This document shows, one piece after another, positions 21,646 through 26,413 of a stretch of 64,000 nt of DNA. The translations under genes and the position numbers were made by a program. Every line of letters begins with the position of its first letter. Position 1 is the stretch's first letter. Under the pieces are notes generated by a model that saw only the letters and a list, made by a program, of their open reading frames with translations, was not told where the DNA came from and searched no databases. This DNA is from Bacilli bacterium (GTDB lineage: Bacteria; Bacillota_I; Bacilli_A; RF39; UBA660), in the NCBI GenBank assembly GCA_022795155.1, contig JAAWGF010000001.1, positions 74,826 through 138,825 on the forward strand. Direction: 5' to 3'.

Positions 21646-21652
21646 AAAAAGA

Positions 21653-21773
21653 TTGACAAACGTATAATAGAAGTGATATATTATTAATGCATTCATTAGA
21701 GATTTACTTCGGTAAATCTTTAATTAAGGGAAAAATGAAACACCTGGATGTGTGTAATGAAAGGAGGATATTA
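21653..21773 (+). promoter_or_regulatory. str operon promoter and structured 5' leader
   Basis: TTGACA-N18-TATATT; 12-bp C(UUCG)G hairpin 21696-21723; CACCTGGATGTGTG before the RBS. Confidence 0.6.
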
Positions 21774-22730: not shown

Positions 22731-24803
22731 ATGGCTCGTGAATATAGTTTAGAGAAAACTCGTAACTTTGGAATTATGGCACATATTGATGCAGGTAAAA
22801 CTACTTGTACAGAACGTGTTTTATTCCATACTGGAAAAATTCACAAAATTGGAGAAACACATGATGGTGCTTCACAAATGGACTGGATGGCTCAAGAACA
22901 AGAACGTGGTATAACCATTACTTCAGCAGCAACGACAGCTTTTTGGAAAGATCACCGACTTAACATTATTGATACTCCAGGTCACGTAGACTTTACTGTA
23001 GAGGTTTCAAGATCACTTCGTGTACTAGACGGAGCAGTGGCTCTTTTAGACTCACAAGCTGGAGTTGAGCCACAAACAGAAACAGTTTGGCGTCAAGCTA
23101 GTGAATTTAAAGTTCCTCGTTTAATTTTCTGTAATAAGATGGATAAAATGGGAGCTAGCTTTGAATTTAGCTTAGGAACAATTGAAAGTCGTTTAGGTGT
23201 TAATGCTAAACCAATCGAATGGCCAATCGGTGCCGAAAGTGAATTTAATGGTGTTATTGATTTAGTTACTAGAACAGCATATCATTATGATGGTAAACCA
23301 GAGGAAGAACCAACTATTATTGATATTCCTAGTGATTTAGTTGATTTAGTTGAAGAAAAGAGAACAGAGTTAATTGAAGCTGTTGCTGAATTTGATGATG
23401 AATTAATGAATAAATACTTAGAGGGTGAAGAAGTTTCTATTGATTTAATTAAAAAAGCCATCAGAAAAGGAACACTACAGGCTGAGTTCTTCCCTGTACT
23501 TTGTGGTACAGCTTTAGGAAATATGGGTGTTAAATTATTGCTTGATGCTGTTATTGATTATTTACCATCACCAACTGATATCGCATCTATTAAGGGTGTT
23601 GATATGGATGGAAATGAAATAGAAAGACATCCATCTGATACAGAACCTTTTGCAGCATTAGCGTTTAAGGTTATGACTGATCCATTTGTTGGAAGATTAA
23701 CATTCTTTAGAGTTTATTCAGGACACTTAAGCAGTGGTTCGTATGTTTTAAACTCAACTAAGGGTGAAAAGGAAAGAATTGGTCGTTTACTTCAAATGCA
23801 TGCTAATACGCGTACAGAGATTAGTGATGCTTATGCTGGAGATATTGGGGCAGCTGTTGGTCTTAAAAATACAACAACAGGTGATACTTTATGTGATGAG
23901 AAAAAACCATGCATTCTAGAATCTATGGAATTCCCAGAACCAGTTATTGAGCTTGCTGTTGAACCAAAATCAAAAGCTGATCAGGATAAAATGGCAACAG
24001 CTTTACAAAAATTAGCTGAGGAAGACCCAACATTTAGAGCTAGTACAAATCATGAAACCGGTCAAACAATTATTGCTGGTATGGGTGAATTACACCTTGA
24101 TATCATTGTTGACCGTATGAAAAGAGAATTTAATGTTGAAGCTAATATTGGTCAACCACAAGTTTCTTATCGTGAAACAATTACACAAGCAGCAGATTGT
24201 GAAGGTAAATATATTAAACAATCTGGTGGTCGTGGACAATATGGTCACGTATGGATTAAATTTGAACCAAATCCTGATAAAGGATATGAATTCGTTGATG
24301 CCGTTGTTGGTGGTGTTGTTCCTCGTGAATACATTCCAGTAACTGACAAAGGTTTACAAGATGCTTTAAAAACTGGTGTTTTAGCAGGTTATCCAATGGT
24401 TGATGTTAAAGCAACATTATTTGATGGTTCATATCATGATGTTGACTCATCAGAAATGGCATTCAAAATTGCCGCTTCATTAGCTTTAAAGGAAGCTAAA
24501 AACAAATGTAAACCAGTTTTACTTGAACCAATCATGAAAGTACAAGTAATCGTTCCAGATGAATATCTAGGAAACGTTATGGGTGATATTACATCACGTC
24601 GTGGGCGTCCACTAGGTCAAGAATCTCGTGGAAATGCTTTAGCAATTGATGCAATGGTACCACTTTCAGAAATGTTTGGTTATGCAACTTCTTTAAGAAG
24701 TAATACGCAAGGACGTGGAAACTTTACAATGGTATTTGACCATTATGAAGAAGTTCCAAGAAATATTGCTGAAGAAATTATCAAAAAAAATGGTGGTAAT
24801 TAA
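22731..24803 (+). CDS. fusA: Elongation factor G
   Basis: [33 protein letters not shown]. Confidence 0.99.
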
Positions 24804-25033
24804 TTATCATGGATAAACAAAATGCTACAAAGCCACGTGTTAACATTGGTACAATTGGATACATAGACAATGGTAAAACTACTTTAACAGAGGCAATTAG
24901 CAAGTATTTATCTGAAAAAGGCCAAAAAAGTTTTGATGAATTATGCAGCCTTGATACTTCGGCTAAATCTCATGATATTGCTTTAGAAGAAACAGCTTAT
25001 AAGCAAAATAATAGGAAAATTCTAATAAAAAAG

Positions 25034-25063
25034 TTGATATTATTATCAATACTTTCCTATAAT
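25034..25063 (+). promoter_or_regulatory. Putative distal tuf promoter
   Basis: TTGATA-N18-TATAAT. Confidence 0.55.
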
Positions 25064-25164
25064 TTAGAAAAAAGTGCTGAAAATAATGATAATAATACAA
25101 AAAGATTTTATGCTTCAATCAAAAGAAGAAAAGACAAAAATAGTGTCAAACTAAGGGAAAATAC

Positions 25165-25193
25165 TTGCTATTTTTCCCTTGTTGATATAAAAT
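25165..25193 (+). promoter_or_regulatory. Putative proximal tuf promoter
   Basis: TTGCTA-N17-TAAAAT; -35 lies within an imperfect inverted repeat (25153-25180). Confidence 0.55.
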
Positions 25194-25228
25194 AATAATT
25201 GTAAGTAAATAAAAGGAGGAAATTTAAA

Positions 25229-26413
25229 ATGGCAAAACAAAAATTTGATCGTTCAAAACCACATGTTAACATTGGTACAATTGGACACGTAGACCATGGT
25301 AAAACTACTTTAACAGCAGCTATTACTAATGTTCTATCTAAAAAAGGATTTGCAGATTTCGTTGATTATGCAAATATCGATAAAGCTCCAGAAGAAAGAG
25401 AAAGAGGTATTACAATTAATACTTCACATGTTGAGTATCAAACTGAGAAAAGACATTATGCGCACGTAGACTGTCCTGGGCATGCTGACTATGTAAAAAA
25501 CATGATTACTGGTGCAGCTCAAATGGATGGTGCAATCTTAGTTATTGCAGCAACTGATGGACCTATGGCACAAACTCGTGAACATATCTTATTATCTCGT
25601 CAAGTTGGTGTTCCTCGTATGGTTGTATTCATGAATAAATGTGATATGGTTGATGATGAGGAATTATTAGATTTAGTAGAAATGGAAATTCGCGAATTAT
25701 TAAACGAATATGGATTTGAAGGTGATGACACTCCAATTATCCGTGGTTCTGCATTAAAAGCTCTTGAAGGAGATGCTAAGTATGAACAAGCAGTTATGGA
25801 TTTAATGGATGCTGTTGATACTTGGATTGATACTCCAGCACGTGATACTGATAAACCTTTCTTAATGCCAGTAGAAGATGTATTTACAATCACTGGTCGT
25901 GGAACTGTTGTTACAGGGCGTGTTGAAAGAGGTCAATTAAAACTTAATGATGAAGTTGAAATTGTTGGTCTTAGAGAAACTAAGAAAACTGTTGTTACAG
26001 GAATTGAAATGTTTAGAAAACAATTAGACTATACTGAAGCAGGAGATAATGCTGGTGTATTATTACGTGGTATTGCTCGTGAAGATGTTGAACGTGGTCA
26101 AGTATTAGCTAAACCAGGAACTGTTACTCCACATACTAAATTCAAAGCTCAAGTTTATGTGCTTAGCAAAGAAGAAGGTGGAAGACATACCCCATTCTTC
26201 AGCAATTATCGTCCACAATTCTATTTCCGTACTACAGATGTTACTGGTGTTATTGAATTACCAGAAGGTGTAGAAATGGTTATGCCTGGAGATAATATTG
26301 AAATGACAGTTGAATTAATTGCTCCTATCGCTATCGAAAATGGGACTAAGTTCTCTATTCGTGAAGGTGGTAGAACTGTTGGTGCTGGTAACGTTTCAGA
26401 AGTTATTAAATAA
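25229..26413 (+). CDS. tuf: Elongation factor Tu
   Basis: [38 protein letters not shown]. Confidence 0.99.

What the first reader, a model, noticed from the sequence alone, without database searches (positions are those of the whole stretch)
24809..25195. Mini EF-Tu: a diverged tuf 5' copy between fusA and tuf
Seen: 5 nt after the fusA stop an ORF begins [38 protein letters not shown], homologous to EF-Tu aa 1-40 with the P-loop GxxxxGKT intact. The core is 49/52 nt identical to tuf and all three mismatches are non-synonymous (H>Y, V>I, H>N), while the flanks are much more diverged but conservative at protein level. The rest of the ORF crosses two predicted tuf promoters. Inference: a relic of tandem duplication or recombination that put tuf under its own promoters, with the core kept by gene conversion, or a translated leader/decoy peptide coupling fusA translation to tuf expression. 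I know of no such element in str operons.
Basis: partly seen in the sequence, partly recalled or inferred. Interest (0 to 1): 0.72.

Follow-up and report, generated by a model that had tools for sequence, protein, structure and literature searches.

The report
Conserved mini-ORF from tuf fragment
A small group of mouse-gut bacteria carries, between the genes for elongation factors G and Tu, a short gene born from a copy of the first ~54 codons of the EF-Tu gene; evolution has kept it readable in eight lineages even though its GTP-binding motif decays, so it is a young translated gene rather than dead debris.

Summary
An ORF (24809-25195) starts 5 nt after the fusA stop. Its first ~52 codons are homologous to tuf codons 7-54 (hhalign E 8e-18), and the 52-nt core differs from tuf at 3 positions, all non-synonymous.

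- **Distribution:** the same ORF, at the same place, occurs in eight diverged lineages of one mouse-gut Bacilli clade. It is absent from 80 relatives.
- **Reading frame:** the frame has no stop in any of the eight lineages. The other two frames have 3-21 stops. All indels between lineages are multiples of 3. Start codons are ATG, GTG or TTG. Chance of the tail staying open under neutrality is about 3e-5.
- **Selection:** the head (codons 1-42) shows weak purifying selection (pN/pS 0.46, p 6e-5). The tail evolves neutrally (pN/pS 1.06).
- **P-loop:** it is destroyed in 3 of 8 lineages, so GTP binding is not the selected property.
- **Window allele:** the 128-aa form is a polymorphic 1-nt deletion allele. 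The usual form has 86-111 aa and stops at a TAG at the foot of a conserved hairpin and tuf promoter.
- **Gene conversion:** the conserved-core, diverged-flank pattern also occurs between orthologous tuf genes, so it does not prove conversion.

Most likely this is a fusA-coupled translated ORF. Whether its product or only its translation matters is unresolved.

The parts
22731..24803 (+). fusA (EF-G, 690 aa); its TAA stop is at 24801-24803
   Evidence: ORF list. Pfam EF-G domains are recorded on the identical gene in L001. It is 97.5% identical in protein to the L006 orthologue.
24804..24808 (+). 5-nt spacer (TTATC) between the fusA stop and the mini-ORF start; no clear Shine-Dalgarno sequence
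   Evidence: The same 5-nt spacing is found in all eight lineages, as TTATC, TTATA or TCATC. GGTGG or GGCGG 12 nt upstream is part of the fusA coding sequence.
24809..25195 (+). Mini-ORF, window allele (128 aa). The usual allele ends at the TAG at 25141-25143 (111 aa)
   Evidence: Frame 0 has no stops in 8 lineages, against 3-12 and 13-21 stops in the other frames.
24821..24964 (+). Part homologous to tuf codons 7-54 (strand beta1, P-loop, helix alpha1 and the following loop)
   Evidence: hhalign E 7.8e-18, columns 5-52 against 7-54. Pfam GTP_EFTU matches profile positions 2-37 of 188 only.
24833..24889 (+). Core (codons 9-27): 53 of 57 nt identical to the neighbouring tuf; P-loop reads GYIDNGKT
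   Evidence: The same stretch differs from tuf at 3-4 positions (window group, L006), 8 (L176) and 13-15 (L170, L173, L171).
24890..24934 (+). Codons 28-42 ([15 protein letters not shown]): the segment with the clearest amino-acid-level constraint
   Evidence: Four independent pairs give pN/pS 0.34, Fisher p 8e-5. Window against L006 gives pS 0.86, pN 0.20 and two Ser AGY/TCN codon switches. This segment was chosen after looking at the data.
24935..25140 (+). Tail: no detectable homology to tuf or fusA; evolves neutrally in sequence but stays open; ends in a basic run (KRRKRQK in the usual allele)
   Evidence: pN/pS 1.06. Probability of no stop under neutrality is 3.4e-5 over four independent pairs. 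Homology tests were negative.
24999..25058 (+). About 60 nt present only in the long-form lineages (window, L009, L007, L170) and absent from the short-form ones (L006, L171, L173, L176); holds the non-conserved promoter-like site at 25034-25063
   Evidence: Alignment and promoter scan. Boundaries depend on the alignment.
25129..25132 (+). A run that has 4 A here and 5 A in other strains and lineages; this 1-nt deletion creates the 128-aa allele
   Evidence: read laying reports 'put in behind 25128: A' in X12, X15, X18 and X32, but not in X17.
25141..25143 (+). TAG, the stop codon of the usual allele; out of frame in the window
   Evidence: Alignment.
25139..25154 (+). AATAGTGTCAAACTAA: apparent relic of an older fusA end (compare L010, AATGGTGGAAAC-TAA) displaced downstream of the insert
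   Evidence: Comparison of intergenic regions. The match is short, so this is suggestive only.
25144..25187 (+). Conserved hairpin: inner stem AAGGGAAAA (25153-25161) with TTTTCCCTT (25172-25180); outer stem TGTCAA with TTGATA; the -35 hexamer lies across the loop and the 3' arm
   Evidence: Folding. Present in relatives, with 2 pairs changed on both sides and G-U pairs in L010. No Rfam match.
25165..25193 (+). Conserved tuf promoter candidate, TTGCTA-17-TAAAAT
   Evidence: Scan. Nearly invariant across the clade and recognisable in relatives.
25213..25219 (+). tuf Shine-Dalgarno sequence, AAGGAGG
   Evidence: Sequence; conserved.
25229..26413 (+). tuf (EF-Tu, 394 aa), full length

Best explanation
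**What it is.** The element is a young, clade-restricted, translated small ORF. It was made from a partial copy of the tuf 5' end (start codon to about codon 54). The copy lies between the fusA stop and the ancestral fusA-tuf intergenic block of hairpin, promoter and Shine-Dalgarno sequence.

**Shown here.**
- It arose once, in the common ancestor of a group of mouse-gut low-GC Bacilli.
- It has been kept as an open frame in eight diverged lineages, always starting 5 nt after the fusA stop.
- It nearly always ends at the same TAG, at the foot of the hairpin.
- Its tuf-derived head is under weak purifying selection.
- Its tail is free to change but may not acquire stops or frameshifts.
- The P-loop is dispensable.

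**Inferred.**
- Ribosomes finishing fusA re-initiate at the ATG, GTG or TTG start 5 nt downstream (termination-reinitiation).
- They then translate across the 260-330-nt insert up to the hairpin.
- The property under strongest selection is uninterrupted translation of this stretch of the str-operon mRNA. This would keep the insert covered by ribosomes. It would also restore the arrangement seen in the nearest relative, L010, where a stop codon sits at the hairpin foot.
- The peptide is then either a tolerated by-product or a weakly constrained microprotein.

**Origin (inferred, unresolved).** Either a tandem duplication spanning the fusA end, the intergenic region and the tuf 5' end, or replacement of tuf by a related allele that left the old 5' stump. 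In both cases the upstream copy of the intergenic region was then lost.

**How sure.** That it is a real, tuf-derived ORF kept open by selection: about 0.85. That the translation-in-cis reading is the main function: about 0.4. The confidence given is for the whole statement.
For: **Real and single origin.**
- Independent assemblies and 20 sequencing runs hold it.
- None of 80 relatives has it. Their fusA-tuf gaps are 58-199 nt, against 360-429 nt in the clade.
- In the EF-G tree the window and L006 form a 100/100 clade. The nearest neighbours, L010 and L013, lack the ORF.

**Derived from tuf.**

**Translation and selection.**
- No stops in frame 0 in 8 lineages, against 3-21 in the other frames.
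- The neutral simulation gives P = 3.4e-5 for the tail alone.
- Indels are about 60-66, 3, 3 and 6 nt.
- Start codons are ATG (six lineages), GTG (one) and TTG (one).
- Head pN/pS is 0.46, p 5.7e-5; tail pN/pS is 1.06.
- Background synonymous divergence between the lineages is large, pS 0.43-0.60 in ordinary genes. A dead 300-nt fragment would have had ample time to decay.

**Geometry.**
- The spacing from the fusA stop is 5 nt in all lineages.
- In L010 and L020 the fusA stop is itself the first bases of the same hairpin.

**Literature.**
- Re-initiation needs overlaps or very short gaps (PMC10666635, PMC6728339).
- Stable hairpins directly after stop codons are a described class, the ribosome termination structure (PMC7518266).
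Against: - There is no direct evidence of transcription or translation. Only one run guessed to be RNA has a contig crossing from fusA into the ORF.
- If only the act of translation mattered, the head should not show amino-acid constraint. It does, at pN/pS 0.46.
- The common window allele moves the stop 52 nt downstream, through the hairpin and promoter. It is widespread, so the exact stop position cannot be critical.
- tuf has its own conserved promoter and strong Shine-Dalgarno sequence. The benefit of keeping the upstream stretch translated is therefore unclear.
- Not all relatives place the fusA stop at the hairpin. L011, L012 and L013 have 97-152 nt gaps.
Confidence: 0.55

Rival explanations
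1. Functional microprotein. The product acts in trans. It has 86-128 aa: an EF-Tu beta1/alpha1-like head, a variable linker and a basic C-terminus. It might act on the translation apparatus, on EF-Tu folding or partners, or on nucleic acid. The frame is kept open because both ends of the protein are needed.
For: - Head pN/pS is 0.46 (p 6e-5). Codons 28-42 give 0.34, with Ser codon-family switches.
- The residues kept in all lineages are the hydrophobic beta1 and alpha1 positions and Y33/L34/G38/F42, not the catalytic P-loop residues.
- A basic C-terminus is present in all lineages.
- The frame is kept open through a linker that is free to vary.
Against: - AlphaFold2 finds no confident fold: mean pLDDT 48.8, pTM 0.24.
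- The constraint is weak.
- The conserved C-terminal nucleotides overlap the A-rich region upstream of the tuf promoter, so their conservation may be a DNA-level effect.
- The window allele replaces the last residues without apparent cost.
- The long and short forms differ by 20-22 residues.
- There is no family match beyond the EF-Tu fragment.
Confidence: 0.25
2. Neutral relic. It is a decaying partial duplicate or recombination stump that happens still to be open. The similarity of the core to tuf is maintained, if at all, by occasional gene conversion.
For: - The tail evolves at the neutral rate: pN/pS 1.06, p-distance about 0.38.
- The P-loop has decayed in three lineages.
- A frameshift allele is common in the window species.
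- L176 has a stop two codons early.
- No fold is predicted.
Against: - The frame is open in all eight lineages despite pS 0.4-0.6 between them. The neutral probability is about 3e-5 for the tail alone.
- Every indel between lineages is a multiple of 3.
- Both changes at the start codon lead to other start codons.
- Head pN/pS is significantly below 1.
- The only frame-breaking events are within the last few codons.
Confidence: 0.08
3. Regulatory leader in the strict sense. Translation of the tuf-like codons of the ORF senses translation capacity or EF-Tu supply. Through the hairpin at its stop, it then tunes read-through transcription or translation of tuf (attenuator or autoregulatory leader).
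For: - The ORF ends at the foot of a conserved hairpin with covarying pairs, just upstream of tuf.
- Openness is selected rather than tail sequence.
- There is a precedent for post-transcriptional autoregulation of a tuf gene through its 5' region: Brandis, Bergman and Hughes 2016, Mol Microbiol 100:1004. That paper is listed in the references of PMC6134099; its content is recalled from my own knowledge.
Against: - The hairpin has no U tract, and no terminator-like site is found.
- No alternative anti-terminator pairing was found, and folding z-scores are unremarkable.
- The hairpin and promoter predate the ORF.
- The window allele reads straight through the hairpin.
- tuf has its own promoter downstream of, or overlapping, the hairpin.
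Confidence: 0.1
4. Assembly artefact: a collapsed or misjoined tuf repeat.
For: Short-read contigs often end inside the conserved tuf 5' core.
Against: - The same architecture, with lineage-specific sequence differences, is found in more than ten independent assemblies from NCBI, ENA and Logan.
- Contigs of 600-800 nt span fusA, the ORF and tuf in several runs.
- The longest exact repeat shared with tuf is only 22 nt.
Confidence: 0.01

Closest known systems
Partial-duplication or recombination stumps of essential genes (for example the displaced icd 3' end at the e14 prophage site in E. coli K-12, and the displaced tuf 3' end noted in earlier finding e1-4823540)
   Same: It is a short copy of one end of a housekeeping gene left next to the intact gene, and is restricted to one clade. 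An apparent relic of the neighbouring gene's end (the fusA end at 25139-25154) lies where a duplicated or imported segment would begin.
   Different: Those stumps are untranslated scars. This one has a start codon, an open frame kept across eight lineages, in-frame indels and pN/pS below 1 in its head. It has therefore become a gene of its own.
Duplicate tuf genes homogenised by gene conversion (tufA/tufB of enterobacteria; own knowledge)
   Same: A second tuf-derived sequence in the same genome, with a stretch nearly identical to tuf.
   Different: - Only about 54 codons are copied.
- Identity is confined to the stretch that is conserved between species anyway.
- Three lineages show unchecked decay of that stretch.
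- The longest exact match is 22 nt, near or below the usual length needed for RecA-mediated exchange (own knowledge).
Termination-reinitiation coupled gene pairs (PMC6728339, PMC10666635)
   Same: The ORF is co-directional with fusA. Its start codon is 5 nt after the upstream stop, there is no convincing Shine-Dalgarno sequence, and the spacing is invariant across lineages.
   Different: Typical pairs overlap by 4 or 1 nt and encode subunits of complexes. Here the downstream partner is a fragment-derived ORF with a neutrally evolving tail. Coupling has not been measured.
Ribosome termination structures (stable hairpins just after stop codons; PMC7518266)
   Same: A conserved hairpin starts 0-9 nt after the usual stop codon of the ORF. 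In relatives L010 and L020 it starts at the fusA stop itself.
   Different: The hairpin also carries the -35 element of the tuf promoter. It is not next to the stop in all relatives. The window allele reads through it.
Autoregulatory leader of tufB in Salmonella (Brandis et al. 2016; own knowledge, reference seen)
   Same: A translated tuf-like 5' sequence lies upstream of a tuf gene and could in principle report translation capacity.
   Different: That mechanism uses the gene's own 5' UTR and early codons with a structure that masks the Shine-Dalgarno sequence. Here the ORF is separate, and no such masking structure was found.

Membership tests
Translational GTPase / EF-Tu (Pfam PF00009 G domain plus domains II and III) | G1 P-loop GxxxxGK[ST] | tested here: inconclusive
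   Present in the window (GYIDNGKT), L009, L007, L006 and L176. Destroyed in L170 (GCIDTDKS), L173 (GHINTSPT) and L171 (LYVDLAKP). The motif is therefore not a conserved property of the ORF family.
Translational GTPase / EF-Tu (Pfam PF00009 G domain plus domains II and III) | G2 (RGITI), G3 (DxxG), G4 (NKxD) and G5 motifs, and domains II and III | tested here: not met
   Homology ends at tuf residue 54. Pfam matches profile positions 2-37 of 188 only. No significant similarity lies beyond that point. The ORF is not a GTPase.
Second tuf copy kept by gene conversion (tufA/tufB type) | Near-identity to the partner beyond what orthologues of related species show, with conversion tracts | tested here: inconclusive
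   - The core is 53-54 of 57 identical to tuf in the window group and L006.
- Orthologous tuf genes show 52-56 of 57 identity in the same stretch, and 31-46 of 60 in the flank.
- L170, L173 and L171 have 13-15 differences in the core.
- The excess conservation in two lineages (3-4 differences against about 12 expected) could reflect conversion or selection.
Pseudogene (non-functional partial duplicate) | No selection on the reading frame: stops, frameshifts, pN/pS about 1 | tested here: not met
   The frame is open in 8 lineages, with P about 3e-5 under neutrality. Indels are multiples of 3. Head pN/pS is 0.46, p 6e-5. Only the tail has pN/pS about 1.
Termination-reinitiation coupled gene pair | Same strand; start codon within a few nucleotides of the upstream stop | tested here: met
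   The gap is 5 nt in all eight lineages, with ATG, GTG or TTG starts. The literature threshold is that about 20 nt nearly abolishes coupling (PMC10666635).
Termination-reinitiation coupled gene pair | Downstream translation depends on upstream translation | not testable with these tools
   This needs reporter assays or ribosome profiling.
Transcription attenuator with leader peptide | Intrinsic terminator (hairpin plus U tract) and an alternative anti-terminator controlled by leader translation | tested here: not met
   No terminator-like site lies in 24500-25400. The hairpin is followed by GUUGAUAU. No competing structure was found, with z-scores of -1.1 and -0.65. There is no Rfam family match.
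Ribosome termination structure (RTS) | Stable conserved hairpin immediately downstream of a stop codon | tested here: met
   - The TAG at 25141-25143 is followed directly by the outer stem (25144-) and, 9 nt later, by the inner stem.
- The hairpin is conserved, with 2 doubly changed pairs.
- It is not adjacent to the stop in the window allele.
- Its function is untested.

The most novel reading that the evidence does not exclude
A fragment of the EF-Tu gene has been turned into a new functional microprotein. It keeps the beta1 strand and alpha1 helix of the G domain but not the P-loop chemistry, and it is made in proportion to EF-G synthesis through re-initiation. It would act on the translation machinery or on tuf expression. 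That would make it a datable case of gene birth from a piece of one of the most conserved genes known, inside the str operon.
Probability: 0.2. Interest if true: 0.75.

Novelty: new variant of a known kind. Interest (0 to 1): 0.5.

Why it matters
Partial duplicates of essential genes are normally short-lived scars. Here one has been kept open for a divergence comparable to that between bacterial species or genera: synonymous divergence in ordinary genes is about 0.45-0.6 in p-distance.

Three things make it useful:
- Its time of origin can be bounded.
- Eight natural variants are available.
- The pattern of constraint is clean: the head is weakly constrained, the tail is neutral but open, and the catalytic motif is dispensable.

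That makes it a tractable natural example of how a gene fragment becomes a new translated ORF. It also allows a test of whether selection can act on the act of translation in an operon junction rather than on the product.

It also carries a caution for annotation. The 'P-loop NTPase' label this ORF attracts is misleading.

Tried and rejected

**Searches that found nothing.**
- The first genome-contig scan with the ORF itself found nothing.
- A JGI metagenome pattern scan for [10 protein letters not shown] found nothing.
- A profile scan of metagenome contigs returned only ordinary tuf genes. None had a truncated N-terminal-only copy.

**Origin of the tail.**
- Local nucleotide alignments to fusA and tuf were not above shuffles.
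- tblastn and BLOSUM alignments were likewise not significant.
- The in-frame match [14 protein letters not shown] is not significant either.

**Foreign donor for the head.** The protein resembles the EF-Tu of L015 in AISKYLS.KG...FEDY. At nucleotide level no relative's tuf is closer than the resident one, so no donor could be named.

**Structure.** AlphaFold2 gave mean pLDDT 48.8, so I made no fold search.

**RNA evidence.**
- The two raw-read runs from the same study as a DNA holder lacked the organism.
- Only one run guessed to be RNA has a contig over the fusA-ORF junction.

**RNA structure.** There was no Rfam hit, and no significant folding of the ORF start or the 3' region as a whole.

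**Apparent leads rejected.**
- The truncated fusA in L172 and L174 is a cluster of G>T and C>A errors.
- Other database proteins with tandem EF-Tu N-termini (P0006, P0007) sit on single contigs of 0.6-1 kb and are probably chimeras.

**Literature.** A search for a described mini-tuf or fusA-tuf ORF found none.
Full report
**1. The observation**

fusA occupies 22731-24803 and tuf occupies 25229-26413. Between them, starting 5 nt after the fusA stop, lies an ORF of 128 codons at 24809-25195.

- Its N-terminus is homologous to EF-Tu. BLASTP gives 25/54 identities, E 6e-14. The profile comparison aligns ORF 5-52 with tuf 7-54, E 7.8e-18.
- Pfam sees only positions 2-37 of the 188-position G-domain model.
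- Three non-synonymous changes out of three is not significant, given the ratio of site classes.

**2. It is real**

- The identical ORF is found in an NCBI MAG and four Logan assemblies.
- The stretch is held by 20 mouse-gut runs from 14 studies.
- Contigs of 600-800 nt cross fusA, the ORF and tuf in several runs.
- Contigs from co-resident relatives show the same junction without the insert, recorded as 'skips 435 with 89-104 letters between'.

**3. Distribution**

- A search with EF-G returned 80 species-representative relatives, described as uncultured Bacilli, 'Tenericutes' or Erysipelotrichaceae MAGs.
- None has a second tuf-like stretch. Their fusA-tuf gaps are 58-199 nt, against 428 nt here.
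- Protein searches found diverged versions of the ORF.
- All of them lie in the same synteny of NUDIX regulator, rpsL, rpsG, fusA, ORF, tuf, pyrH and so on. All start 5 nt after the fusA stop.
- Together with the window there are eight distinct lineages: window, L009, L007, L170, L006, L173, L171 and L176.
- In the EF-G tree the window and L006 form a 100/100 clade. Their nearest neighbours, L010 and L013, lack the ORF.
- Divergence among ORF-bearing lineages is substantial: pS is 0.46-0.60 in pyrH, 0.25-0.36 in fusA and 0.10-0.22 in tuf.

**4. The frame is maintained**

- In all eight lineages frame 0 has no stop. The other two frames carry 3-12 and 13-21 stops.
- Length differences between lineages are multiples of three: about 60-66 nt, 3 nt, 3 nt and 6 nt.
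- The start codon is ATG in six lineages, GTG in L007 and TTG in L170.
- I placed the observed number of substitutions at random on the tail (codon 43 onward), with AT-biased targets. The probability of no stop was 0.54, 0.016, 0.044 and 0.090 for four phylogenetically independent pairs. The product is 3.4e-5.
- The only frame-changing events are at the very end. L176 stops two codons early. The window allele has a 1-nt deletion in an A run after 25128, which bypasses the TAG at 25141-25143 and extends the ORF from 111 to 128 codons.
- That deletion is polymorphic. The undeleted form is seen in runs X12, X15, X18 and X32. The deleted form is in X17, in L001-L005 and in the window.

**5. What is and is not constrained**

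Summed over four independent pairs:

| Region | pN/pS | Fisher p |
|---|---|---|
| Head, codons 1-42 | 0.46 | 5.7e-5 |
| Codons 28-42 | 0.34 | 8e-5 |
| Tail | 1.06 | 0.9 |

- Codons 28-42 were chosen after looking at the data. Between the window and L006 they show saturated synonymous change with 13 of 15 residues kept.
- Two serines in that segment use different codon families (AGY and TCN) in the two lineages.
- The GxxxxGKT motif is intact in five lineages and destroyed in three.
- The positions kept everywhere are the hydrophobic beta1 and alpha1 positions plus Y33, L34, G38 and F42.
- AlphaFold2 gives no confident fold: mean pLDDT 48.8.
- The ORF is therefore not a GTPase. The 'intact P-loop' of the window is not the selected feature.

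**6. Gene conversion**

- Distance to the neighbouring tuf in the flank (codons 32-45) is 17-20 of 42 in every lineage.
- In the core (codons 9-27) it is 3-4 of 57 in the window group and L006, 8 in L176, and 13-15 in L170, L173 and L171.
- At first sight this suggests conversion of the core. However, real orthologous tuf genes of related species show the same profile against the window's tuf: core 49-56 of 57, flank 31-51 of 60.
- A copy taken from a different tuf allele would therefore show a conserved core and diverged flanks from the first day.
- Three lineages have let the core drift at about the neutral rate.
- The low counts in the window group and L006 could reflect later conversion or lineage-specific constraint. 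This is not settled.
- The longest exact match to tuf in the window is 22 nt.

**7. Origin**

- The block downstream of the usual stop holds the hairpin, the TTGCTA-17-TAAAAT promoter and AAGGAGG. It is the ancestral fusA-tuf intergenic region.
- In L010 the whole 74-nt gap is this block. There, and in L020, the fusA stop TAA forms the first bases of the hairpin.
- In the clade, the 16 nt before the hairpin (AATAGTGTCAAACTAA, 25139-25154) resemble the L010 fusA end (AATGGTGGAAAC-TAA). The working fusA ends with its own AATGGTGGTAATTAA upstream of the ORF.
- This is what a duplicated or imported segment spanning the fusA end, the intergenic region and the tuf 5' end would leave, followed by loss of the upstream intergenic copy. 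That loss would have removed a strong promoter and Shine-Dalgarno sequence from the truncated copy.
- Tandem duplication and allele replacement with an illegitimate left junction both predict this structure. The second model was suggested by earlier finding e1-4823540. I could not separate them.
- The variable loop of EF-Tu (residues 30-49) has a patchy distribution of types among relatives. This suggests that tuf recombination occurs in this family.
- The first eight codons of the ORF changed sharply after its origin, including a 6-nt deletion. They were then conserved among lineages.

**8. Mechanism**

Shown:
- The ORF position is fixed at 5 nt after the fusA stop.
- The start codon is kept.
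- The frame is open.
- The stop lies at the hairpin foot.
- The head is weakly constrained.

Inferred:
- Initiation is by termination-reinitiation after fusA. This process requires overlaps or very short gaps (PMC10666635, PMC6728339).
- Translation runs across the insert to the hairpin. Hairpins directly after stop codons are a described class (PMC7518266).
- Handing ribosomes on to tuf is unlikely at 82-85 nt.
- Because nonsense and frameshift changes are excluded while the tail sequence is free, I think selection acts mainly on uninterrupted translation of this part of the operon mRNA.
- The head constraint leaves real room for a microprotein function.
- The widespread read-through allele argues against a precise requirement for the stop position.

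**9. Comparison and novelty**

- The closest known things are stumps of housekeeping genes left by duplication or recombination. Those are untranslated.
- Gene-converted tuf paralogues are full length.
- Termination-reinitiation pairs share the spacing seen here.
- Leader-based tuf autoregulation has no matching structure here.
- I found no description of a tuf-derived ORF between fusA and tuf.
- I rate it a new variant of a known kind: a gene-fragment relic that has become a maintained ORF.

**10. Limits**

- There are no expression data.
- Sequence samples are small, at 86-128 codons.
- The codon counts use a simple counting method on AT-rich sequence.

Noticed in passing
window 25144-25187; also L010, L011, L012 and L020: A hairpin overlapping the -35 element of the tuf promoter is conserved across the family. 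Its stem base shows compensatory changes (GGG/CCC, GAT/ATC, GT/AC, TG/CA), and L010 has G-U pairs. In L010 and L020 the fusA stop codon is part of its 5' arm. There is no Rfam match and no U tract. It could be an RNA element of the read-through transcript.
   Followed up: partly
EF-Tu residues 30-49 in L010-L037: The surface loop after helix alpha1 of real EF-Tu comes in distinct types, for example [21 protein letters not shown] and a shortened KYFGEFVDY. Their distribution does not follow the EF-G tree. This suggests recombination or allele exchange of tuf among these gut Bacilli.
   Followed up: no
window 25034-25063: A near-consensus sigma-70-like site (TTGATA-18-TATAAT, 11 of 12) lies inside the 60-nt segment found only in the long-form lineages. 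It is disrupted in L007 and L170, so it is probably fortuitous.
   Followed up: partly
L172 3933-3966 and the same place in L174: Six G>T or C>A differences within 35 nt create false stop codons at the fusA 3' end, so the gene is called as 672 aa. L173, from the same lineage, is intact. This looks like a sequencing-damage or assembly error in low-coverage contigs.
   Followed up: yes
P0006 (L177), P0007 (L178), P0009-P0011: Database proteins with two or three tandem EF-Tu N-termini exist. The two I looked up sit on single contigs of 0.6-1.1 kb from one sample each, so they are likely assembly chimeras at the conserved tuf 5' core.
   Followed up: partly
L002-L005, L007-L009: Short-read metagenome contigs carrying this locus regularly end inside the first 45 nt of tuf. 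This is presumably because the conserved tuf 5' core is shared with co-resident species. MAGs of this group may therefore often lack the fusA-tuf junction.
   Followed up: no
window 21646-21773 compared with L006 841-969, and other intergenic regions: Intergenic regions of the str-operon neighbourhood are far more conserved between the window and L006 (0-17% different) than synonymous sites of the flanking genes (13-54%). This indicates dense regulatory signals, such as a leader upstream of rpsL.
   Followed up: no
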